A stretch of 64,000 nt of DNA from Eledone cirrhosa. Its lineage: Eukaryota. The translations under genes and the position numbers were made by a program. This document shows, one piece after another, positions 6,978 to 63,669 of this stretch (its first letter is position 1; every line of letters starts with the position of its first letter). The stretch is from positions 19,716,001 through 19,780,000 of the forward strand of contig OZ024748.1 in assembly GCA_964016885.1 (NCBI GenBank), in the 5' to 3' direction. The notes under the pieces were generated by a model that was not told the DNA's origin, did not search any database, and saw only the letters and a program-made list of their open reading frames with translations.

Positions 6978-7560
6978 CAAGTAAATTTATGACTTCGTAT
7001 AAAATAACATATGGTTCATGTTTTAATTATATTCTTAAGATAAAAAATGTTGTACATTTTTTAACTTTATAACATTTAATCCTTTTGTAAACTCTCGTAA
7101 GTTTTTCATAAATTTAGAATTATTTGGATGTTTAAATTTTGACTTACAACTTTTAATAAAATAAACTATATTAGTTTTGCTCTAATGTAAAATACTATAT
7201 ATATACACCTATACAAGTAAATTTATGACTTCGTATAAAATAACATATGGTTCATGTTTTAATTATATTCTTAAGATAAAAAAATGTTTAACTTTTTAAC
7301 TTTATACCATTTAATCCTTAGAGTCATCTGAGTTCTTAAAAAATCACTTCTAACTTCCTTTATACTCCCTTACTATTCTTAAAAAATCACTTCTAACTTC
7401 CTTTACACTTCCTTACTGGTTTTATAATATAACTAAGTGGTTATTCCTTTGTAAACTCTCGTAAATTTTTCATTAATTTAGAATTATTTGGATGTTTAAA
7501 TTTTGATTTACAACTTTTAATAAAATAAACTATAATAGTTTTGCTCTAATGTAAAATAAT
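6978..7560. repeat. Local direct duplication of a ~220-bp AT-rich block, second copy with an insertion
   Basis: CAAGTAAATTTATGACTTCGTATAAAATAAC at about 6978 and 7214; the downstream halves also match. Confidence 0.8.
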
Positions 7561-12930: not shown

Positions 12931-14560
12931 GGTGGTGGATTGGCAGTATCGGTAGAGGGTCGGACGCCATGCTTTGCAGCAAAGAGTTACGGCCCTTTAT
13001 GGTCTGAGTTCAAATCCCGCCGAGGTTAACTTTGCCTTTCATCCTTACGTGGTCGATAAAATAAAGTACCAGTAATACACTGGATCTCAAGAGACCATAA
13101 GGTCCGCCATGTTCAAGAAAGAACACACATATACACACACATACATTTTTAGGTGTTTAGACTTGAGATGTACTTATATTGAGAGAATCTTCCTTAGTAT
13201 ATGGGCAGTTCCCATTAGTACTATCCTTTGTATTTTTTCTATACGCAGGTTTCCTGGGATTTGGGATAAGTAATCATCAGACCCCTTAGGTATCATTCAT
13301 AGAGCGCCTACAACGTCTGGTATTGTTTTAGTTCTCAATTTCCACATTTTTCCAATTTCTATCTCCAGGTCCTTATACTTGCTCAATTTTTCAAATGTTT
13401 TATAGATACATTCTTGTCTATTGGAACGGACATATCAATTAGCAGGCATACCCTCTTTTTATTATTATTATTATTATTATTATGAGTTCAAATCCCGCCG
13501 AGGTTAACTTTTCCTTTCATCCTTACGGGGTCGATAAAATAAAGTACCAGTAATACACTGGATAATTGCTGGCCTTATGCCTAAAGTAGAAACAATTATA
13601 TTATTTAATTATATGTAGTTATAGAATTAATATCGTTGTTGACTTTGCCTTTCATCCTTACGGGGTCGATAAAATAAAGTACCAGTAATGCACTGGGTAA
13701 TTGCAGACCTTGTGCCTAAAGTAGAAACAATTATTTTATTTTATTATATGTAGTTATAGAATTAATATCGTTGTTGACTTTGCCTTTCATCCTTACGGGG
13801 TCGATAAAATAAAGTACCAGTAATGCACTGGGTATTTGCTGGCCTTGTGCCTAAAGTAGAAACAATTATTTTATTTAATTATATGTAGTTATAGAATTAA
13901 TATCGTTATCCTTATTCAGCGGATTGGCAGAATCGGACAGGTTTCGCGGCTTAGAATTACATCCCTTTTCGTTCTGATTTCCGATTCCGCCGAGGTTAAC
14001 TTTGCCTTTTATATAGTGATTAAAATAAATATTGTCGATAGAATAAACAACCAGTTTCCACCCTCCCTCCAATCGACTTCCCCTCCCCTTGTGCCTTAAT
14101 CAGAAATCATTATTGTTATTATGTAGCGGTGGAATGACAGAATCTTTAGAGTGTCGGACATTATGCTTAGCGAAAACAGAGTTACGGACCTTTACATTCT
14201 GAGTTCGAATCCCGCCGAGGTTAGCTTTGCTTTTCATCCTCACGAGGTCGATAAAATAAAGCACCAGTAAGGCACTGGGGTCGATTTAATAGACTTTCCC
14301 CCCTCCCCAAATTACTGGCTTTGTCCCTCTAGTAGAAATCATTATTATTGGATGTGACCTCAGTAGATTAGCAGAAATCGGTTGAGCGTCAGACAAAATA
14401 CATTGCGATAGTTATTTACGACTTTCTACGTTCTAATTTCGAATTCCATCAAGATCAACTTTGCTTTTCTTTGCTCAGGTGTCGATAAAATAAAGTACCA
14501 GTTAAATACTTTCCTCTTGCCCCCAAATTGCTGTCCTTGTGCAATATATGTCAAAACTAA
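12931..14560 (+). mobile_element. Head-to-tail cluster of the dominant tRNA-derived SINE family (about 7 full or partial copies, including ~135-bp tandem 3' duplications)
   Basis: Repeated TGGCAGTATCGGTAG (A-box-like), GAGTTCAAATCC (B-box), GCCTTTCATCCTTACGGGGTCGATAAAATAAAGTACCAG and ATT tails. Confidence 0.85.
13085..13458 (-). mobile_element. Truncated, diverged copy of the R4/Dong-like LINE 3' end
   Basis: Reverse complement aligns by eye to about 33470-33845; abuts (TTA)n at 13459-13483. Confidence 0.9.
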
Positions 14561-18352: not shown

Positions 18353-19176
18353 TGTGGACATTTGACCACCAGATATTTCCAATATATTACTGTGGACATT
18401 TGACCACCAGATATTTCCAATATATTAATGTCGACGTTTGACCACCAGATATTTCCTATATATTAATGTGGACATTTGACCACCAGATATTTCCAATATA
18501 TTACTGTGGACATTTGACCACCAGATATTTCCAATATATTAATGTGGACATTTGACCACCAGATATTTCCAATATATTACTGTGGACATTTGACCACCAG
18601 ATATTTCCAATATATTAATGTGGACATTTGACCACCAGATATTTCCAATATATTACTGTGGACATTTGACCACCAGATATTTCCAATATATTAATGTGGA
18701 CATTTGACCACCATATATTTCCAATATATTACTGTGGACATTTGACCACCATATATTTCCAATATATTACTGTGGACATTTGACAACCAGATATTTCCAA
18801 TATATTACTGTAGACATTTGACAACCAGATATTTCCAATATATTAATGTGGACATTTGACCACCAGATATTTCCAATATATTACTGTGGACATTTGACCA
18901 CCAGATATTTCCAATATATTACTGTGGACATTTGACCACCAGATATTTCCAATATATTACTGTGGACATTTGACCACCAGATATTTCCAATATATTAATG
19001 TGGACATTTGACCACCAGATATTTCCAATATATTAATGTGGACATTTGACCACCAGATATTTCCAATATATTACTGTGGACATTTGACCACCAGATATTT
19101 CCAATATATTAATGTGGACATTTGACCACCAGATATTTCCAATATATTAATGTGGACATTTGACCACCAGATATTT
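18353..19176. repeat. 38-bp minisatellite, about 21.7 copies
   Basis: TGTGGACATTTGACCACCAGATATTTCCAATATATTAM; unit starts at 18353, 18391 and on to 19151. Confidence 0.95.
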
Positions 19177-20206: not shown

Positions 20207-20547
20207 TACAATATATTAATAAATGGAAACTATATTTCAAGGGCCACCAAGTCAAATTATGGTGCGCTTTCATCAGATAAAATACAGATTTGTTTTATAA
20301 ATAAATATTGACATACCAGGAAAAAAAAGACAACCTTAACGGTTGGAGCTTCCTGGATAGTCTATCCAGGTAGCTCCAACCGTTAAGGTTGTCTTTTTTT
20401 CCGGGTATGTCAATATTTATTTATAAAATAAATCTTTATTTTATCTGATGAAAGCGCACCATAATTTGCCTTGGTGGCCCTTGAAACATGTATAATAAAA
20501 TAAATATGGTTTTATAAATATAGTTTCCATTTATTAATATATTGTGT
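20207..20547. repeat. Long palindrome centred at 20361 within a TA-flanked element
   Basis: CCTGGATAG t CTATCCAGG centre; arms about 150-185 bp with few mismatches; single-arm copy at 8088-8270. Confidence 0.9.
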
Positions 20548-23881: not shown

Positions 23882-24411
23882 GTTGTCTAATCTGATTAGT
23901 GTTTTCGTTGTTTTGGTATTGTGTCGCTAGGTCTGCATGCCGCAATTTAAAATTTGTCAAGCTGTCTAAACGTATGTTGTTACTCTAAGGCCCGACCTTA
24001 TTGAGTGGTTTGCTACTCATTCCTTATTGTAGGTCGACTTTGCTTGGCCGCAGTCAAAGCTTCGATTTTACTAAGCTTCCACTTGTATATATATATACAC
24101 ACACACACACACACATATATATATGATGATTTCTAATGAATGAAACAGTTCTAGTCCTGTAGAATCTCATCTATATTAAAACTTTTATACTCTGCTATGT
24201 ATTGAGTACCTTACTTACTGTGGTTACCTCCGATTCAACCCGGAATAACGTACATATATATATATATATATATAACAAAGGAGTTGTGGTAAGGAACCAG
24301 ATGGACCATAACGCACCAGAGTACTCAATACTTAGGGTAGTAGAGTGGGAAATTTAGTCCAGAAATAGCCGTCGAAACGGCTTGAGCTCTGCCGTCGGTG
24401 TAATACTTTTT

Positions 24412-24467
<56 letters not shown>

Positions 24468-25227: not shown

Positions 25228-26398
25228 ATATTTAATTGTGTCATACCTCTTCTTTCACGGAGATAACATTTTTTTCCCTTTAATTACGTGTCCCACTCGA
25301 CTCAAGGGGACAATATTTTACATCCCGTCTGATCACCAGACACCAAGTTTCACACCAGTTGAACATATCACTTAGTATCAAGTTTTTCACTTGTAATTTT
25401 TCTTATATAACCAAATCATATTCTTCTGCCACCATGATATATTTTCTTCTCGTTAAGTAAGTACTGACAAAGATTTTATCTCGAAACCCTTAAAGGAATT
25501 CTTCTAAAAAGTAGAAACTTGCAATAATTATTATGACTTTGAGTAGTCAATATTTTTCAGGAATTTCTTCGTAAAATATTTCCCAAAGAAGTAATTAAGA
25601 TTGCTATCTATTTCGTTATTCTCGAGAAGAAGGTGGTAGAATGACTAAGGCGATGACTTGGCAACGTTGTTAGATCTGCTGATATACTATATTTTGTGGT
25701 ATTTGTTCTGGTTATCTGTGTTCTGAGTTCAAATCACGCTGATATCAAACTTGCCTTTAATTTATTTGTCGGGGTCCATGAAATAAAATATTTATCAGTC
25801 GACAGTGTTGGATACTTAAAATTGGTAGAGAATCAGAGGGGAGGGGCTATACCTAGTGATAATTGTTGTCTTTCTCTCTCCTTTTACAATGATGTTTGTT
25901 TCTGTTAAATCTTCTTCATAAAACAGTAAAAGAAAACTCTGCATGAAGAGGACAAATGAAATAGGTGCAATGTTTCAGTACATTTCTCTCTCTATTTCTC
26001 TCTCTCTCTCACTCTCACTTCTTATTCTTCATTAACGCCTGGAAGGACAAACAGTTAAAGCCGACATATGCAGTCCTTGATTGCGGTCACGAAACCAAAA
26101 TTATATTATCCCGTATATAATGTTTTCTAATTTAATTTCAAGACTGGCATTTTATACTTGATTATTCAGTGGATTTGTGGTTTACTGAGGAACCTACCAA
26201 TATTAGTATTCAATGCTACAGCCAAGCGCGTATATATATATATATATATATATTTGAAAGAAGGAAAAGATGACTTCACTTGTAGTTCTAAACAATTTGA
26301 TTTAATTTTATATCAAAATAAATCAAATTGTTTATAGCTACAAGTGAAGTCATTCTTTTCCTTTTTTCAAATAATTGTACCAAGGATTTCACACATTT

Positions 26399-29502: not shown

Positions 29503-29576
<74 letters not shown>

Positions 29577-29742
29577 ATTCTGAGTTCAAATCCCGCCGAG
29601 GTTAACTTTGTATTTCATCCTTACGGGGTCGATAAAATAAAGTACCAGTAATGCACTGGGTAATTGCTGGCCTTGTGCGAAAAGTACAAACAATTAAATG
29701 AGGAAAATTAATTTTAAAAAAATTGTTCTATCATTTCCCTTG

Positions 29743-29794
<52 letters not shown>

Positions 29795-29799
<5 letters not shown>

Positions 29800-30120
29800 A
29801 ATGAATAATAACAGGTAGACATCATAAAAAGGTAGTTTATTCCGTGTGCTTACAAGTGTTTCCGCGGTGGTGCTGCAGCCTAGTTCCGCTACGTGCAAAT
29901 TCACAAGTATTTGCAGAACTCGAATATCCAATGCTGTGACCACTGTTTCCTCATTCTGCTCTGAGGAAACAGTGGTCACAGCATTGGATATTCGAGTTCT
30001 GCAAATACTTGTGAATTTGCACGTAGCGGAACTAGGCTGCAGCACCACCGCGGAAACACTTGTAAGCACACGGAATAAACTACCTTTTTATGATGTCTAC
30101 CTGTTATTATTCATTCTTTA
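29795..30120. repeat. Perfect palindrome, 159-bp arms, 8-nt spacer, in a TA-flanked element extending to 30263
   Basis: 29795-29953 is the reverse complement of 29962-30120; the ORF track shows the same peptide on both strands. Confidence 0.97.
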
Positions 30121-30260
30121 TATACACTCCGGAACACTGAAGGATCAGGAACTAAGTTTCTTGAACAATTCTTCCATAACTCGTAGAGTAACCTCTTACC
30201 GTACGTCAACCATATCCAGTGTAGTAATTAACCATCACTACATCTTGGATAATCCTATAC

Positions 30261-30348
<88 letters not shown>

Positions 30349-30525
30349 CATAAATGAGTCCCGGGTTCAATCCGGGGTAACCACAGTTATTAAGGTACTT
30401 AATGGGTTTCCTGATGATATCTTTTAAAAGAAACAGTTCCAGTCCTCTATATGTCATTTCTACATTAAACATGATATATATATATATATTGTTATACTTG
30501 GGGAGGCTCATATTGTTGTAATAAT

Positions 30526-34249: not shown

Positions 34250-34284
34250 AGAGAGTCACTTCAGTTAGAGTCACTACATCTCCA

Positions 34285-34930
34285 AATTGAGAGATCACAG
34301 CTCCGATACTATGGGCATGTGGTTAGAATGTCTTAGGAAAGAATCTCGGAATTGAGAGATCACAGCTCCGATACTATAGGCATGTGGTTAGAATGTCTTA
34401 GGAAAGAATCTCGGAATTGAGAGATCACAGCTCCGATACTATAGGCATGTGGTTAGAATGTCTTAGGAAAGAATCTCGGAATTGAGAGATCACAGCTCCG
34501 ATACTATAGGCATGTGGTTAGAATGTCTTAGGAAAGAATCTCGGAATTGAGAGATCACAGCTCCGATACTATAGGCATGTGGTTAGAATGTCTTAGGAAA
34601 GAATCTCGGAATTGAGAGATCACAGCTCCGATACTATGGGCATGTGGTTAGAATGTCTTAGGAAAGAATCTCGGAATTGAGAGATCACAGCTCCGATACT
34701 ATGGGCATGTGGTTAGAATGTCTTAGGAAAGAATCTCGGAATTGAGAGATCACAGCTCCGATACTATGGGCATGTGGTTAGAATGTCTTAGGAAAGAATC
34801 TCGGAATTGAGAGATCACAGCTCCGATACTATGGGCATGTGGTTAGAATGTCTTAGGAAAGAATCTCGGAATTGAGAGATCACAGCTCCAATACTATGGG
34901 CATGTGGTTAGAATGTCTCAGGAAAGAATC
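34285..34930 (+). repeat. 65-bp tandem array (10 copies) derived from an RTE LINE coding fragment
   Basis: Unit starts at 34285, 34350 and on to 34870; flank + unit + flank translate to LQIERSQLRYYGHVVRMSQERIVGQILRAKPTCRRP. Confidence 0.9.
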
Positions 34931-36158: not shown

Positions 36159-36829
36159 TTAAATGATTTTAGGTGGTCTTGCAGTCACGAACAGACACAG
36201 ATACCTGTTCCATCCTTCGTTCCTCCTTGGATCTAGCGGAATATAATGGATGTTCCGCTAGATCCAGGGAGTTAGGATCAGCTAGAAGGAGGGAGGGGCT
36301 GTACCAGCAATGAGCAATGTGCTAGTACTTTCTTTGTCGACATTGAACGGATGAAAAGCAAAGTGGACACCGCGGCGGGATTTGAATTCAGAAGAGCGGG
36401 GCCTGAAAACAAAACCCAAAGCTTTAACGAATCTACCAAATCGACCGCCTTATTGTACTATATTGAACTTACTTAAGACTTAGAAGCTCCCGCGTCTTAA
36501 GAGGCATGAGGCTGCCAAAGTGCTCCAATTACCACGGTCAGTTGTATCTATCACTACATCGTACCAGCATTTGTCGACGGTTTTCAGGTCTCTGTCGATT
36601 TTTTTGTAGTGTGAGGTGCTGTATAAGGTTTGACTTGTTTTGCTTCCACTACTTAGAGGGAAGAGCAAAGTTTGTTACGTTTTCAAACTATCTAAAACTG
36701 TAGTGGTGTTGGTGGCGATGCAATGTGTGCTCAGCTTCCTGCAGACAAAACGTGAGTAGATGTGTTAGTGTAGATTGTTTAGGGTGTAAAGGGAGTTTAG
36801 TTGTGGTGTCTCTACTTCACTACATTTCA

Positions 36830-37030: not shown

Positions 37031-37089
37031 ATCTGATGGGCGTGTCTACTGGTCTTGTGTCTGATGGGCGTGTCGATGGGTGTATAATA

Positions 37090-40000
37090 GGTGTGTCTAC
37101 TGAAACCAGTGTGTCGTAGGTGTGTCTACAGAAATTGGTGTGTAGTAGGTGTGTCTACTGAAATCGGTGTGTAGTAGGTGTGTCTACTGAAATCGGTGTG
37201 TAGTAGGTGTGTCTACTGAAATCGGTGTGTAGTAGGTGTGTCTACAGAAATTGGTGTGTAGTAGGTGTGTCTAGTGAAACCAGTGTGTCGTAGGTATGTC
37301 TACAGAAATTGGTGTGTAGTAAGTGTGTCTACTGAAATCGGTGTGTAGTAGGTGTGTCTACTGAAATCGGTGTGTAGTAGGTGTGTCTACTGAAATCGGT
37401 GTGTAGTAGGTGTGTCTACTGAAATCGGTGTGTCGTAAGTGTGTCTACTGAAATCGGTGTGTAGTAGGTGTGTCTAGTGAAACCAGTGTGTCGTAGGTGT
37501 GTCTACTGAAATTGGTGTGTAGTAGGTGTGTCTAGTGAAACCAGTGTGTCGTAGGTGTGTCTACAGAAATTGGTGTGTAGTAGGTGTGTCTAGTGAAACC
37601 AGTGTGTCGTAGGTGTGTCTACTGAAATTGGTGTGTAGTAGGTGTGTCTACTGAAATCGGTGTGTCGTAAGTGTGTCTACTGAAATCGGTGTGTAGTAGG
37701 TGTGTCTACTGAAATTGGTGTGTAGTAGGTGTGTCTACTGAAATCGGTGTGTAGTAGGTGTGTCTACAGAAATTGGTATGTAGTAGGTGTGTCTACAGAA
37801 ATTGGTGTGTAGTAGGTGTGTCTACTGAAATCGGTGTGTAGTAGGTGTGTCTAGTGAAACCAGTGTGTCGTAGGTGTGTCTACAGAAATTGGTGTGTAGT
37901 AGGTGTGTCTACAGAAATTGGTGTGTAGTAGGTGTGTCTACTGAAATCGGTGTGTAGTAGGTGTGTCTACTGAAATCGGTGTGTAGTAGGTGTGTCTACA
38001 GAAATTGGTGTGTAGTAGGTGTGTCTAGTGAAACCAGTGTGTCGTAGGTGTGTCTACAGAAATTGGTGTGTAGTAGGTGTGTCTACTGAAATCGGTGTGT
38101 AGTAGGTGTGTCTACTGAAATCGGTGTGTAGTAGGTGTGTCTACTGAAATCGGTGTGTAGTAGGTGTGTCTACTGAAATTGGTGTGTAGTAGGTGTGTCT
38201 ACAGAAATTGGTGTGTAGTAGGTGTGTCTAGTGAAACCAGTGTGTCGTAGGTGTGTCTACTGAAATCGGTGTGTAGTAGGTGTGTCTACTGAAATCGGTG
38301 TGTAGTAGGTGTGTCTACTGAAATCGGTGTGTAGTAGGTGTGTCTACTGAAATCGGTGTGTAGTAGGTGTGTCTACTGAAATCGGTGTGTAGTAGGTGTG
38401 TCTACTGAAATTGGTGTGTAGTAGGTGTGTCTACTGAAATCGGTGTGTAGTAGGTGTGTCTACTGAAATTGGTGTGTAGTAGGTGTGTCTACAGAAATTG
38501 GTGTGTAGTAGGTGTGTCTACTGAAATCGGTGTGTAGTAGGTGTGTCTACTGAAATCGGTGTGTAGTAGGTGTGTCTACTGAAATCGGTGTGTAGTAGGT
38601 GTGTCTACTGAAATCGGTGTGTAGTAAGTGTGTCTACAGAAATCGGTGTGTAGTAGGTGTGTCTACTGAAATTGGTGTGTAGTAGGTGTGTCTACTGAAA
38701 TCGGTGTGTAGTAGGTGTGTCTACTGAAATTGGTGTGTAGTAGGTGTGTCTACTGAAATCGGTGTGTCGTAAGTGTGTCTACTGAAATCGGTGTGTAGTA
38801 GGTGTGTCTACTGAAATTGGTGTGTAGTAGGTGTGTCTACTGAAATCGGTGTGTAGTAGGTGTGTCTACAGAAATTGGTATGTAGTAGGTGTGTCTACAG
38901 AAATTGGTGTGTAGTAGGTGTGTCTACTGAAATCGGTGTGTAGTAGGTGTGTCTAGTGAAACCAGTGTGTCGTAGGTGTGTCTACAGAAATTGGTGTGTA
39001 GTAGGTGTGTCTATAGAAATTGGTGTGTAGTAGGTGTGTCTACTGAAATCGGTGTGTAGTAGGTGTGTCTACTGAAATCGGTGTGTAGTAGGTGTGTCTA
39101 CAGAAATTGGTGTGTAGTAGGTGTGTCTAGTGAAACCAGTGTGTCGTAGGTGTGTCTACAGAAATTGGTGTGTAGTAGGTGTGTCTACTGAAATCGGTGT
39201 GTAGTAGGTGTGTCTACTGAAATCGGTGTGTAGTAGGTGTGTCTACTGAAATCGGTGTGTAGTAGGTGTGTCTACTGAAATTGGTGTGTAGTAGGTGTGT
39301 CTACAGAAATTGGTGTGTAGTAGGTGTGTCTAGTGAAACCAGTGTGTCGTAGGTGTGTCTACTGAAATCGGTGTGTAGTAGGTGTGTCTACTGAAATCGG
39401 TGTGTAGTAGGTGTGTCTACTGAAATCGGTGTGTAGTAGGTGTGTCTACTGAAATCGGTGTGTAGTAGGTGTGTCTACTGAAATTGGTGTGTAGTAGGTG
39501 TGTCTACTGAAATCGGTGTGTAGTAGGTGTGTCTACTGAAATTGGTGTGTAGTAGGTGTGTCTACAGAAATTGGTGTGTAGTAGGTGTGTCTACTGAAAT
39601 CGGTGTGTAGTAGGTGTGTCTACTGAAATCGGTGTGTAGTAGGTGTGTCTACTGAAATCGGTGTGTAGTAGGTGTGTCTACTGAAATCGGTGTGTAGTAA
39701 GTGTGTCTACAGAAATCGGTGTGTAGTAGGTGTGTCTACTGAAATTGGTGTGTAGTAGGTGTGTCTACTGAAATCGGTGTGTAGTAGGTGTGTCTACTGA
39801 AATTGGTGTGTAGTAGGTGTGTCTACTGAAATCGGTGTGTAGTAGGTGTGTCTACTGAAATTGGTGTGTAGTAGGTGTGTCTACTGAAATCGGTGTGTAG
39901 TAGGTGTGTCTACTGAAATCGGTGTGTAGTAGGTGTGTCTACTGAAATTGGTGTGTAGTAGGTGTGTCTACTGAAATCGGTGTGTAGTAAGTGTGTCTAC

Positions 40001-40761
40001 TGAAATCGGTGTGTAGTAGGTGTGTCTACTGAAATCGGTGTGTAGTAGGTGTGTCTACTGAAATTGGTGTGTAGTAGGTGTGTCTACTGAAATCGGTGTG
40101 TAGTAAGTGTGTCTACTGAAATCGGTGTGTAGTAGGTGTGTCTACTGAAATTGGTGTGTAGTAGGTGTGTCTACTGAAATCGGTGTGTAGTAAGTGTGTC
40201 TACAGAAATCGGTGTGTAGTAGGTGTGTCTACTGAAATTGGTGTGTAGTAGGTGTGTCTACTGAAATCGGTGTGTAGTAGGTGTGTCTACTGAAATTGGT
40301 GTGTAGCAGGTGTGTCTACTGAAATCGGTGTGTAGTAGGTGTGTCTACTGAAATTGGTGTGTAGTAGGTGTGTCTACTGAAATCGGTGTGTAGTAGGTGT
40401 GTCTACTGAAATCGGTGTGTAGTAGGTGTGTCTACTGAAATTGGTGTGTAGTAGGTGTGTCTACTGAAATCGGTGTGTAGTAAGTGTGTCTACTGAAATC
40501 GGTGTGTAGTAGGTGTGTCTACTGAAATCGGTGTGTAGTAGGTGTGTCTACTGAAATTGGTGTGTAGTAGGTGTGTCTACTGAAATCGGTGTGTAGTAAG
40601 TGTGTCTACTGAAATCGGTGTGTAGTAGGTGTGTCTACTGAAATTGGTGTGTAGTAGGTGTGTCTACTGAAATCGGTGTGTAGTAGGTGTGTCTACTGAA
40701 ATTGGTGTGTAGTAGGTGTATCTACTGAAATCGGTGTGTAGTAAGTGTGTCTACTGAAATC
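37090..40761. repeat. 29-bp satellite, about 126 copies, with degenerate flanks to about 41060
   Basis: ACTGAAATYGGTGTGTAGTAGGTGTGTCT; period 29 (37157 to 37186). Confidence 0.97.
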
Positions 40762-44928: not shown

Positions 44929-44929
<1 letters not shown>

Positions 44930-45044
44930 ATATAGAAAGGCTTCTACAGGACTAGAACTGTTTCATTCGGGAGAAATCATCAGGGCTTCCCAATGATTTC
45001 TCCCGAATGAAACAGTTCTAGTCCTGTAGAAGCCTTTCTATATT
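44929..45044. repeat. Palindrome (52-bp arms, 12-nt spacer) folding at a hammerhead-like core
   Basis: 44929-44980 versus 44993-45044; minus strand reads CTGATGA tttc tccc gaat GAAAC agttcta GTC. Confidence 0.9.
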
Positions 45045-45141
45045 TAAATATTTACACTCTGCTTCGTATTGAGTACCTTACTTACTGTGGTTACCCCCGA
45101 TTGAACCCGGGTTAAACTTATCTGTCTCTCTCTCTTTCCCC

Positions 45142-45253
<112 letters not shown>

Positions 45254-45325
45254 GGACGTGTGGTAAGGAACCAGATGGACCATAAAGCACCAGAGTACTC
45301 AATACTAAGGGTAGGAGAGTGGGTA

Positions 45326-45441
45326 ATAGGAAAATGTTTAACTCCTACGGCAGAGCTCAAGCCGTTTCGACGGCTATTTCAGTCTAGAAATAGCCGTCAA
45401 AACGGCTTCAGCTCTGCCGTCGGGGTTAAACATTTTCCTAT
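45326..45441. repeat. Palindrome (55-bp arms, 6-nt spacer) in a TA-flanked element 45250-45441
   Basis: CGGCTATTTC agtcta GAAATAGCCG centre; family members at 24277-24415, 54213-54330 and 54394-54556. Confidence 0.88.
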
Positions 45442-50795: not shown

Positions 50796-51584
50796 GTAAC
50801 CATAGAGACATGTCAATATTAACCAGACAACACGGTTTATTTCCATAATTAATTACCATTTTCATTTGGCTTATTTTAAATGCATCAAAGTTTAATATTT
50901 TTCGCTAAATTACTCAAATTCCGAGACTAACCACTTGATATGGGCATCTCAGAGTCTTTGTGGCGTCAGATTAAATTCCCCAGGGTTTTATTTCGTCTGT
51001 CTGTGCTCTGATTTCAGAATACCCGAGGCCATCTATGCCTTTCATCCTTTCTATGTTGATAAATAAAGGTATCGGCAGAGAAAAGATGGTGGTTTATTCC
51101 GGATTTCTCCTCTATGAGTTCAAATCCTCCACTGGCAAATTTGCTTTCATTTCTTTTTTGTATTTTCAGGGCCGATAAATAGAGTAACAACCCAGTGGTT
51201 GTCCATTAACGGAATCCCTAAATAAAGAGTCGCACAGAATGTTTTATGGCACCTGATGTGGGTTGAGTTTAAATAACTTCAAACCTCGTCTTCTGTTAAA
51301 AAGCGATGATGCTCCTACTATAGAAAGACAAATTAAAACATAGTTTCTTTGTTCCAATCAGATAACCGGCAGGCAGTATCTGCAATAGAAAGGTCAATAG
51401 AATCATAGATTTAGTGTTCCACTCTAACAACTAACAGATAGTGTCTGCAATAGAAAGACCAAAGTAATCTTAGATTACTTGTTCCAATCTGACGTCTAAC
51501 AGACTGTGTCTGTAATAAAAAGACCAATGGAATAATAGATTTCTTGTTCCAATCTAACGACCGATAGATAGTATCTGACCAGCA

Positions 51585-52298
51585 GATAGTATATGTAATA
51601 GAAAGATCAATGAAATCACACTTTCTTTTGTCTGATCTTACAATCAGTAGATAGTATCTGTAATAGAAAGACCAATGAAATCACACTTTCTTTTGTCTGA
51701 TCTTACAATCAGTAGATAGTATCTGTAATAGAAAGACCAATGAAATCACACTTGCTTTTGTCTGATCTTACAATCAGTAGATAGTATCTGTAATAGAAAG
51801 ATCAATGAAATCACACTTTCTTTTGTCTTATCTTACAATCAGTAGATAGTATCTGTAATAGAAAGATCAATGAAATCACACTTTCTTTTGTCTGATCTTA
51901 CAATCAGTAGATAGTAACTGTAATAGAAAGACCAATGAAATCACACTTTCTTTTGTCTGATCTTACAATCAGTAGATAGTATCTGTAATAGAAAGACCAA
52001 TGAAATCACACTTGCTTTTGTCTGATCTTACAATCAGTAGATAGTATCTGTAATAGAAAGATCAATGAAATCACACTTTCTTTTGTCTGATCTTACAATC
52101 AGTAGATAGTAACTGTAATAGAAAGACCAATGAAATCACACTTTCTTTTGTCTGATCTTACAATCAGTAGATAGTATCTGTAATAGAAAGACCAATGAAA
52201 TCACACTTGCTTTTGTCTGATCTTACAATCAGTAGATAGTATCTGTAATAGAAAGACCAATGGAATCATAGTTTATTTGGTCTGATCTGACAATCAGC
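51585..52298. repeat. 65-bp tandem array, about 10 homogeneous copies plus degenerate copies from about 51330
   Basis: AATGAAATCACACTT starts at 51609 and 51674; the final unit starts at 52259. Confidence 0.93.
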
Positions 52299-54041: not shown

Positions 54042-54329
54042 GGGGATTTCTTTCTTCGTTTCTGTGCCTTTCCTTTCTTCTATCCTACGCCATTTTGTTT
54101 CTTATTGGCAACATGACCCTCCCAAAGTATAACAATATCGGTTTCAACACACGATTTCAGATAAAGAATCTTGCTAAACAAATTCAGAAACGAAATATGT
54201 ATATATATATATATAGGAACCAGTAAGACCCCAGGGGTCTTACTGGTTCCTATTACCCACTCTACTACCCCAAGTATTAAGTACTTTGGTGCGTTATGGT
54301 CCACCTGGTTCCTTACCACATTTCCTTCG

Positions 54330-54396
<67 letters not shown>

Positions 54397-54665
54397 AAAA
54401 GAGTCAGGACCCCGACGGCTGAGCTCCAGCCGTTTCAAAACGGCCGGAGCTCAGCCGTCGTGGTCCTGACATGTTTTCTATTATTCACTCTACTACCCAG
54501 TATCGAGTACTTTGGTGCGCTTGCTCCACCTGGTTACTTACCTCACTTCCTACGTTATATATATATATGTATATATATACATATATATATATAAGGAACC
54601 AAATAAATATATATATTTAAAAAAAAAATAAGACTCCAGTTGCATTTTCGATTTCATCTCTTTTT

Positions 54666-61740: not shown

Positions 61741-61857
61741 ATAAGTTAAAATAAAATGAAAACGAAATTTCATTTCTCACTCTTAGTACGGCACTTACTT
61801 AAATGTAAGTATGTATGTATACGTACATACATATATGTATACAGACGTACAGTAGCA

Positions 61858-61919
<62 letters not shown>

Positions 61920-62036
61920 TGCTACTGTACGTCTGTATACATATATGTATGTACGTATACATACATACTTACATTTAAGTAAGTGCCGTACTAAGAGTGA
62001 GAAATGAAATTTCGTTTTCATTTTATTTCAACTTAT
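61741..62036. repeat. Near-perfect palindrome, ~120-bp arms, centred on pure (TA)n
   Basis: The ORF track gives the same 83-aa peptide on both strands. Confidence 0.95.
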
Positions 62037-63393: not shown

Positions 63394-63401
<8 letters not shown>

Positions 63402-63542
63402 TAAAATAACAGATTAAAGTTTACGCAAAGAATCGCTGCTTTCACCCTTAACGGGATCTTCTGAAACTGTTTCAGAAGATCCCGTTAAGGGTGAAAGCAG
63501 CGATTCTTTGCGTAAACTTTAATCTGTTATTTTAATAAATAT
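63394..63542. repeat. Perfect palindrome, 74-bp arms, 1-nt spacer, beside a degenerate hammerhead-like motif
   Basis: Centre CTGAAAC t GTTTCAG at 63468; right arm CAGAAGA tccc gttaa gggt GAAA; family member at 46575-46690. Confidence 0.93.
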
Positions 63543-63624
63543 TTGCTCTACGGTTCTTATATATTTGATATATATTTTCCTTATCGAGCCCTCTTTGGAT
63601 TTTAGTCTTCAATTTTATTATTAT

Positions 63625-63669
<45 letters not shown>

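What the first reader, a model, noticed from the sequence alone, without database searches (positions are those of the whole stretch)
29795..30263. Perfect 326-bp palindrome and a recurring fold-at-the-ribozyme architecture
Seen: 159-bp identical arms with an 8-nt loop, TA tracts at both ends and a longer right arm. The centre lies just 5' of GAAACAGTGGTC, which resembles the 3' half of a hammerhead core. The same asymmetric head-to-head design, centred at or beside a hammerhead-like motif, recurs at 44929, 45326 and 63394 in different families. Established: PLE insertions often have inverted pLTR arrangements. Inference: both ends of a cut in (TA)n prime cDNA synthesis (or the cDNA snaps back), with termination at the ribozyme structure. 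This would mass-produce hairpin loci able to yield perfect dsRNA for ADAR or Dicer.
Basis: partly seen in the sequence, partly recalled or inferred. Interest (0 to 1): 0.75.

Follow-up and report, generated by a model that had tools for sequence, protein, structure and literature searches.

The report
Penelope palindrome centred on RNA start
This palindrome is two head-to-head stumps of a common Penelope-type jumping gene sitting in a TA repeat, a known layout, and its centre lies at the element's likely RNA start (some copies carry a likely cap-derived extra G there) rather than at the predicted ribozyme's cut site, so both halves were likely copied separately from the two ends of one DNA break.

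Summary
The palindrome is confirmed: 159-bp identical arms (163 with TA), 8-nt loop, longer right arm. It is one insertion of a ~3.2-kb Hydra-clade Penelope-like element with over 1,200 ends in this genome. Of 81 inverted insertions, 68 pair one arm ending at the element's end with one ending 139 nt earlier. In 37 of 81 each arm holds sequence the other lacks, which excludes simple snap-back. GAAACAGTGGTC is not the hammerhead's 3' half: it is the end of CUGANGA plus stem II. The 3' half lies 85 nt downstream. Arm ends pile up at an initiator-like A just 5' of helix I (hazard 0.026/nt), not at the predicted cut site (0.003). Some carry a non-templated G, as do 5 of 6 informative ends in the 44929 family. 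Best reading: twin priming, run-off at the capped RNA start, microhomology joining. The layout is published; I did not find the cap and run-off evidence in the papers searched. This scan reached the same start-site reading on other loci. No RNA data, and no read bridges this locus.

The parts
29743..29790 (.). Left (TA)n target tract
29791..29953 (-). Arm B: inverted stump of the element's front segment, +10 to +172 of the inferred RNA (-301 to -139 from the element end). It lacks helix I 5' strand and C3, so it holds no complete hammerhead. It ends on an internal TATATA that meets the TA tract
   Evidence: -139 end on TA in 1,213 exact matches and in raw reads
29952..29953 (.). CA/TG 2-nt microhomology joining the two arms; the same junction recurs in another subfamily (L054) and flipped (L097)
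29953..29953 (+). Inferred RNA start (+1, A of initiator-like CCATTC), peak of arm 5' ends; non-templated G before it in other copies
29954..29961 (+). 8-nt loop = bases +2 to +9 of the inferred RNA, present only in arm A
29953..30263 (+). Arm A: direct stump, +1 to +311 (pLTR / 5' UTR of a Hydra-clade PLE), 99.7% identical to the ORF-bearing copy L032
29957..30068 (+). Predicted type I hammerhead with long stem II: helix I 29957-29960/30065-30068, CUGAGGA 29961-29967, stem II 29969-29976/30044-30051 enclosing ~65 nt, GAAAC 30053-30057, GUA 30062-30064 (predicted cut after 30064)
   Evidence: activity untested
30125..30263 (+). 139-nt one-sided tail between the two fixed 3' ends (inferred RT start sites)
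30264..30352 (.). Right (TA)n target tract
44929..45118 (+). Second family, same layout; canonical hammerhead (helix I GGCUUC/GAAGCC); TATAAATA 30 nt before the helix I G in longer copies; extra G at 5 of 6 microsatellite-adjacent ends. ORF link not shown here
45251..45441 (-). Third family, same layout (long arm on the left); centres at TTAGTCCAG in listed copies; no CUGANGA core seen
   Evidence: not quantified
63394..63628 (+). Fourth family, same layout; degenerate core CAGAAGA...GAAAG next to TTAGTT; one longer copy (L263) carries a PLE endonuclease end upstream

Best explanation
The palindrome is one insertion of a Hydra-clade Penelope-like retrotransposon, two head-to-head stumps in (TA)n, likely made when both ends of one cut primed reverse transcription at two fixed internal sites of the element's RNA and both copies likely ran to, or nearly to, the capped RNA start before being joined by a 2-nt microhomology. 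Shown: two fixed 3' ends 139 nt apart, one per arm; arms often not nested; both arms share source-specific variants; 5' ends peak at one A; extra G there; short overlaps at junctions. Inferred: a double-strand cut, the TSS and cap, one RNA molecule versus two from one source gene, and the joining step. The hammerhead coincides with the centre because it begins 4 nt after the RNA start. Its fold likely adds secondary stops but does not set the main one.
For: ORF: 784 aa with RWK, DKT, YRDD, CxCX5C, YQC..YIG, CxxC, CxH, the Hydra diagnostics in PMC8557442 section 11. End rule: 68 of 81 inverted insertions are (0,-139), 1 is (0,0), none is (-139,-139), 12 unresolved (L109 reclassified by eye). 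In 37 of 81 arm B extends >30 nt 5' of arm A while A alone has the tail. Arms differ by 1.1-1.7% within a locus vs 4-5% median to other loci, with 28 rare shared variants, in 50 loci with overlap. Hot spot: 24 of 162 ends in -316..-300, hazard 0.017/nt vs 0.0038 downstream and 0.0011 upstream; -313..-307 0.026 vs cut site -201..-195 0.003. Non-templated G in 7 of 52 ends starting at A(-310) vs 1 of 59 at -309/-311, p=0.025 (counted by eye after removing 10, 4 and 13 point-mutant rows). L286 and L287 are (TA)n-G-(+1..+311)-(TA)n and (TA)n-G-(+1..+172)-(TA)n solo stumps. 44929 family: TATAAATA at -30 in 3 of 3 long copies, extra G in 5 of 6 microsatellite-adjacent ends. 48 of 81 junctions overlap by 1-8 nt. 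Two RT start sites bounding the tail, and HHR cleavage dispensable, are reported in vitro for an anole PLE (PMC11167929).
Against: The 5' edge is soft: 7 ends lie at -318..-328, 8 fold-backs lie wholly 5' of -312 vs 36 in the window spanning +1, and 59 sampled copies read through. This family has no TATA box at -30. Of arms longer than one unit, the three that reached -300 in the upstream copy all passed it. Termination is also raised across the hammerhead body, with peaks near -219 and -248, so structure contributes. 16 of 81 insertions are near-symmetric vs 5.1 expected, including deep ones (-2304/-2292), which snap-back of one cDNA would also give. Only 2 of 14 TA-adjacent ends at -310 carry the G. 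All is inferred from genomic copies; the sample is from contig C1 only.
Confidence: 0.7

Rival explanations
1. Twin priming as above, but RT stops because it has just traversed the hammerhead fold or its own protein-binding site; the start site is incidental.
For: Hazard is raised across -299..-200 (0.0038 vs about 0.001 on either side) with peaks at stem II and the inner hairpin. Centres sit at helix I in the 44929 family too. PLE protein assists HHR folding in vitro (PMC11167929).
Against: The peak is 5' of the entire fold, not at its 3' face or the cut site. A non-templated G is not explained by structure. The 45326 family folds at a similar Inr-like site with no CUGANGA seen.
Confidence: 0.12
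2. For near-symmetric cases such as this locus, one cDNA folds back on itself at the RNA start and copies itself (snap-back), then is captured by the second target end or the second cDNA.
For: Here arm B is nested in arm A and both share a private T-to-C change at 30051/29864. Near-symmetric insertions are 3-fold enriched, 16 of 81 vs 5.1, maximum 14 in 20,000 permutations.
Against: It cannot make the 37 of 81 non-nested insertions. Among symmetric ones the loop belongs to the short-tailed arm about as often as to the long one (L097 is this junction flipped). Asymmetric insertions share variants just as well.
Confidence: 0.12
3. Self-priming on an antisense template, the published proposal for head-to-head PLE palindromes.
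For: Proposed in PMC3846280 Discussion from rotifer elements with bidirectional promoter motifs.
Against: Both outer ends are fixed sense-strand sites abutting TA, and the inner ends carry a sense-strand cap-like G, as expected for sense-RNA templates.
Confidence: 0.03
4. Assembly or library fold-back artefact.
For: Arms are identical here; no read bridging this centre was seen.
Against: Flanks are not mirrored, and both arms end at family-specific sites. Sister palindromes have diverged arms (L097: 7 differences). Raw reads of other samples show the -139/TA end and an opposite-strand joint at -306/-233, and contigs show an inversion joint.
Confidence: 0.03

Closest known systems
Hydra clade of EN+ Penelope-like elements, incl. 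Hydra-1_Obim (Craig et al. 2021, PMC8557442; passages, section 11 and supplement look-ups seen)
   Same: Single ORF with RT and C-terminal GIY-YIG; RWK, DKT, CxCX5C, CxxC and CxH motifs; (TA)n target; hammerhead in the pLTR; N-terminus resembles Hydra-1_Obim by eye.
   Different: A different family: five short motifs from this element and the 44929 family gave no hit in the supplement. Unit 3.18 kb vs generally <3 kb. Hammerhead halves 85 nt apart vs a canonical short stem II. Tail 139 nt vs 30-40 nt.
Typical EN+ PLE insertion: inverted 5'-truncated pLTR with one-sided tail and palindromic junction (PMC3846280 passages and Discussion; PMC8557442 Fig. 2 legend)
   Same: Head-to-head layout, tail on one side only, microhomology junctions, palindrome at the junction.
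   Different: There explained by self-priming on an antisense template or by endonuclease resolution; here genomic counts favour two sense-RNA primings and run-off at a capped start.
PAc/Poseidon of Anolis in vitro (Frangieh et al. 2024, PMC11167929; parts 1-2 of 4 read)
   Same: Both strands cut and extended, AT-rich target, two internal RT start sites bounding the tail, HHR cleavage not required.
   Different: PAc start sites lie inside the ORF and are used on both strands alike in vitro; here they lie in the 5' UTR, 139 nt apart, with one of each per insertion in 68 of 69 resolved cases. The parts read do not address where cDNAs end or how inverted copies form.
LINE-1 twin priming (recalled; only search listings seen)
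   Same: Second target end primes internally on the RNA, giving an inversion joined by microhomology.
   Different: L1 inverted and direct segments are adjacent, non-overlapping parts of the RNA; here the same segment is copied twice and both start sites are fixed.
Minimal PLE hammerheads (Cervera and De la Pena 2014, PMC4209133; parts 1-2 of 4 read)
   Same: Type I, 4-bp helix I, extra base after A9, short helix III.
   Different: Stem II here encloses about 65 extra nt with an inner hairpin and lacks the G10.1-C11.1 pair.

Membership tests
Hydra-clade PLE | Single ORF, RT followed by C-terminal GIY-YIG endonuclease | tested here: met
   784-aa ORF in L032 with YRDD at 355 and YQC..YIG at 665. 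Pfam gave no hit at E<=0.001, so the call rests on motifs.
Hydra-clade PLE | RWK and DKT motifs | tested here: met
   RWK at 46, DKT at 124; definition
Hydra-clade PLE | CxCX5C linker; CxxC and CxH around the conserved E/N | tested here: met
   CNCHLPERC at 644, CRLC at 742, CNH at 770
Hydra-clade PLE | Insertion into (TA)n | tested here: met
Hydra-clade PLE | Canonical hammerhead in the pLTR | tested here: inconclusive
   All core bases and helices I-III present, but stem II is long and non-canonical; Rfam reported no hammerhead among the 150 rows shown of 249
Hydra-clade PLE | Placement in the Hydra clade on an RT tree | not tested
   Reference sequences were only visible as supplement text; compared by eye
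Neptune-clade PLE | CX2-5CxxC linker, CCHH in the endonuclease, DKG motif | tested here: not met
   Linker is CxCX5C and the RT motif is DKT; my early note calling it Neptune was wrong
Type I hammerhead ribozyme | CUGANGA and GAAA core, NUH site, helices I-III | tested here: met
   92.5% of cells paired vs 24-39% for slid controls on 16 chosen copies; N7 varies G/U/A; 0 of 21 core and helix I positions vs 21 of 151 others show subfamily-level change, p=0.08
Type I hammerhead ribozyme | Covariation supporting the fold | tested here: inconclusive
   Only 1 pair with a two-sided change, not above shuffles; the fold is 5-6 kcal/mol above the MFE for the window and L032 copies
Type I hammerhead ribozyme | Self-cleavage | not testable with these tools
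   Needs in vitro assay
Palindromic non-autonomous element (MITE or retrozyme) copied as a unit | Copies share one fixed junction and length | tested here: not met
   Junctions vary from -16 to beyond -3000 across 81 loci; the 36 fold-backs have many different centres

The most novel reading that the evidence does not exclude
Hydra-clade PLEs integrate by an obligate two-primer reaction: one RNA, or a pair from one source gene, is copied from two fixed sites 139 nt apart, one for each end of the break, and both copies run through a cap-proximal long-stem-II hammerhead and off the cap. That would settle how PLE head-to-head insertions and tails arise, make palindrome centres a genomic map of PLE start sites, and make PLEs a standing source of perfect hairpins behind the octopus's exceptional dsRNA and hyper-editing load.
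Probability: 0.4. Interest if true: 0.7.

Novelty: new variant of a known kind. Interest (0 to 1): 0.45.

Why it matters
How PLEs form tandem and inverted insertions is named as an open task in PMC8557442, and the published proposal invoked antisense self-priming (PMC3846280). This family gives countable genomic rules (one of each end per insertion, shared template, cap-like G at the centre) that translate directly into an in vitro test with an existing assay format (PMC11167929). It also offers a hammerhead form that short-spacer descriptors would miss. About a fifth of inverted insertions (16 of 81) are near-perfect hairpins. Octopus has an unusually high dsRNA potential and hyper-editing signal, and the lizard Penelope is heavily edited (PMC5625713 passages), so the link is testable but not shown. 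The locus itself is an ordinary recent insertion.

Tried and rejected
Rfam scan: only simple-repeat miRNA matches among the 150 of 249 rows shown, no hammerhead. Pfam missed the ORF; the RVT_1 hit is an unrelated neighbouring element in L048. No RNA holder listed, so expression, editing and small RNAs were not examined. Laying reads and contigs on this locus gave no record bridging its centre; all 47 raw reads at 30051 carry the family base, not this locus's variant. Reading GAAACAGTGGTC as a stem-II-less hammerhead was dropped once GAAAC...GUA and helix I were found downstream. Neptune assignment dropped. Cut-site run-off: 3 ends in -201..-195, no excess over neighbours. An ADAR imprint in cDNA copies: shared variants were A>G in 5 of 28, private in 16 of 116, no clear excess. 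Spliced-template signature: no upstream exon seen at junctions (by eye). First structure count was mis-registered and redone. Sequence look-up in earlier scan notes found nothing for this family. Literature searches listed no paper on cap-derived G, start-site run-off or twin priming in PLEs; most subscription papers are not in the library, and the older Penelope structure and promoter papers were not read.

Full report
Observation. (TA)n lies on both sides and the right arm runs on to 30263. The three other palindromes named are present. The window lies in a 3.0-Gb assembly. Earlier scan notes call it octopus; I did not test the species.

What the arms are. The right arm is the end of a repeat with at least 792 exact ends on TA. 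Longer copies give a 3,176-nt unit (L032:4382-7557) with a 784-aa ORF. Its motifs (RWK, DKT, YRDD, CxCX5C, YQC..YIG, CxxC, CxH) are those listed for the Hydra clade of Penelope-like elements (PMC8557442 section 11). In tandem copies the same ~310 nt sit directly upstream of the ORF, so they are the pLTR/5' UTR. Counting back from the element end (0 = 30263), the right arm A spans -311 to 0 and the left arm B spans -301 to -139 inverted, joined by a CA/TG overlap.

Family rule. I anchored on 92 ends of the -139 type (from the first 90 of 1,213 listed places) and 70 ends of the 0 type (of 792), all on contig C1. After removing duplicates and ends without a directly adjoining inverted partner, 81 insertions remained. 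Of these 68 pair a 0 end with a -139 end, 1 has two 0 ends, none has two -139 ends, and 12 are cut off or broken. The asymmetry is thus a fixed 139-nt one-sided tail. A 30-40-nt tail on one side of an inverted copy is the published PLE layout (PMC8557442; PMC3846280), and in vitro the tail equals the distance between two RT start sites (PMC11167929). In 37 of 81, B reaches more than 30 nt further 5' than A while only A has the tail, so neither arm can be a copy of the other. Yet arms of one locus differ by 1.1-1.7% against 4-5% to other loci and share 28 rare variants (50 loci with overlap), so both come from one source. 48 of 81 junctions overlap by 1-8 nt, 8 are blunt, 25 have inserted bases.

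The ribozyme. The other half, GAAAC..GTA, lies at 30053-30064 and is followed by AGCA, which pairs with TGCT just before the core. This gives a type I hammerhead with 4-bp helix I, 2-bp helix III and an 8-bp stem II enclosing about 65 nt. On 16 chosen copies 92.5% of cells pair against 24-39% in slid controls, but there is only one two-sided change and no excess over shuffles, and the fold is not the MFE for the window copy. Core and helix I show no subfamily-level change (0 of 21 vs 21 of 151, p=0.08), while N7 varies. It is a likely, untested ribozyme. The predicted cut is after -199, about 110 nt from the centre.

Where arms stop. 24 of 162 arm 5' ends fall in -316..-300, 0.017 per nt at risk, against 0.0038 in -299..-200 and 0.0011 in -400..-317. 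The cut site shows no excess (3 ends, 0.003). With subfamily-aware matching 15 ends lie at -308..-316, 8 at -298..-303, 7 at -318..-328, and 59 copies read through. Genome-wide, 36 fold-backs lie in the 30-nt window spanning this site and 8 wholly 5' of -312. Raw-read depth also drops several-fold 5' of about -317, though subfamily divergence may contribute.

Start site or structure. The peak base is the A of CCATTC, an initiator-like motif (consensus recalled). If this is a capped 5' end, RT should sometimes add a base read from the cap (recalled from other retroelements). Among ends starting exactly at A(-310), 25 of 52 are preceded by G, against 3 of 20 at -309 and 12 of 39 at -311. Counting only Gs not explained by the partner arm gives 7 of 52 vs 1 of 59, p=0.025 (my counts by eye, after dropping 10, 4 and 13 rows that are point mutants of read-through copies). 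Two loci are bare: (TA)n, G, the first 311 or 172 nt, (TA)n. Against this, only 2 of 14 TA-adjacent ends show the G, and there is no TATA box at -30. The 44929 family is clearer: 815 matches start at the helix I G with a non-template base before it; among the first 100, 5 of the 6 next to a G-free microsatellite have an extra G; and 3 of 3 longer copies have TATAAATA 30 nt upstream. The 45326 family folds at TTAGTCCAG with no CUGANGA in the copies listed (not counted), which separates the fold point from an intact ribozyme.

Mechanism. Likely: the endonuclease cuts both strands in (TA)n; one end primes at +311 and the other at +172, each using a short TA-like match in the RNA; when the 5' copy of the pLTR is used, both cDNAs run to or near the cap and are joined by microhomology. 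Here arm A is complete to +1 and arm B lacks nine bases, which form the loop. Near-symmetric insertions are enriched (16 of 81 vs 5.1), even deep in the ORF, which fits one RNA molecule with one 5' end copied twice but also snap-back of one of the two cDNAs; for this locus alone the two cannot be separated. Secondary peaks near -219 and -248 suggest the fold adds stops.

Artefact. Flanks are not mirrored, sister palindromes have diverged arms, the same junction recurs in another subfamily and flipped, and independent samples show the -139/TA end and inversion joints. This locus's own centre was not seen in reads.

Consequence. A read-through transcript would form a 159-bp perfect hairpin that masks the ribozyme. 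Arm A starts at +1, so the hairpin needs a host promoter. Octopus is reported to have exceptional dsRNA potential and hyper-editing (PMC5625713 passages). Nothing here tests expression or editing.

Novelty. The layout is known. The 139-nt tail, the long-stem-II hammerhead, the one-of-each-end rule and the cap-like G were not found in the papers listed by my eight searches, which miss most subscription journals. Papers seen: PMC8557442 (passages, section 11, supplement look-ups), PMC11167929 and PMC4209133 (parts 1-2 of 4), PMC3846280 (passages, Discussion), PMC5625713 (passages), bioRxiv 10.64898/2026.07.22.740005 (part 1 of 5; its supplements are closed). Earlier notes of this scan reached twin priming and start-site run-off at other loci of this genome; they prompted my start-site test and are not independent support.

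Noticed in passing
window 61741-62036: Palindrome with 148-nt arms (1 mismatch) centred on a (TA)27 tract, the opposite layout to the finding; the same sequence flanks L001. Its origin was not worked out.
   Followed up: partly
window 30355-30475: A stump of a relative of the 44929 family inserted in the right TA tract: short inverted end, one extra G, then a hammerhead-bearing arm. Nested PLE insertions in TA tracts are common around the sampled loci.
   Followed up: partly
window 63469-63530 family (L256-L285): Hammerhead-like fold with a conserved non-canonical core (CAGAAGA...GAAAG...CGU) in most of 30 copies; either a core variant or a decayed ribozyme kept as a structure.
   Followed up: partly
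window 45326-45441, 54403-54470, 24373-24450: Very abundant family with stem AGCCG/CGGCU and no CUGANGA core; many palindromes centred at TTAGTCCAG.
   Followed up: partly
L032:7308-7373, 7375-7464, 7461-7523: Raw reads show short parts of the pLTR embedded in unrelated AT-rich sequence at fixed boundaries; possibly blocks conserved in more distant families or a library effect.
   Followed up: no
window 20322-20400, 26270-26353, 54213-54253, 36223-36271: Further short non-TA palindromes; the first is at the centre of a longer head-to-head repeat also seen beside L005 and L029.
   Followed up: no
window 37079-40761, 18353-19176, 34278-34930, 51580-52297, 13503-13907: Tandem arrays with periods 29 (127 copies), 38, 65, 65 and 135; the last is a tandem of the abundant SINE-like repeat also at 29575-29690.
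   Followed up: no
L011/L012 (C1:249.17 Mb and 247.93 Mb), L079/L080, L091/L092, L116: Identical insertions at paired places, pointing to segmental or tandem duplications; counted once.
   Followed up: partly
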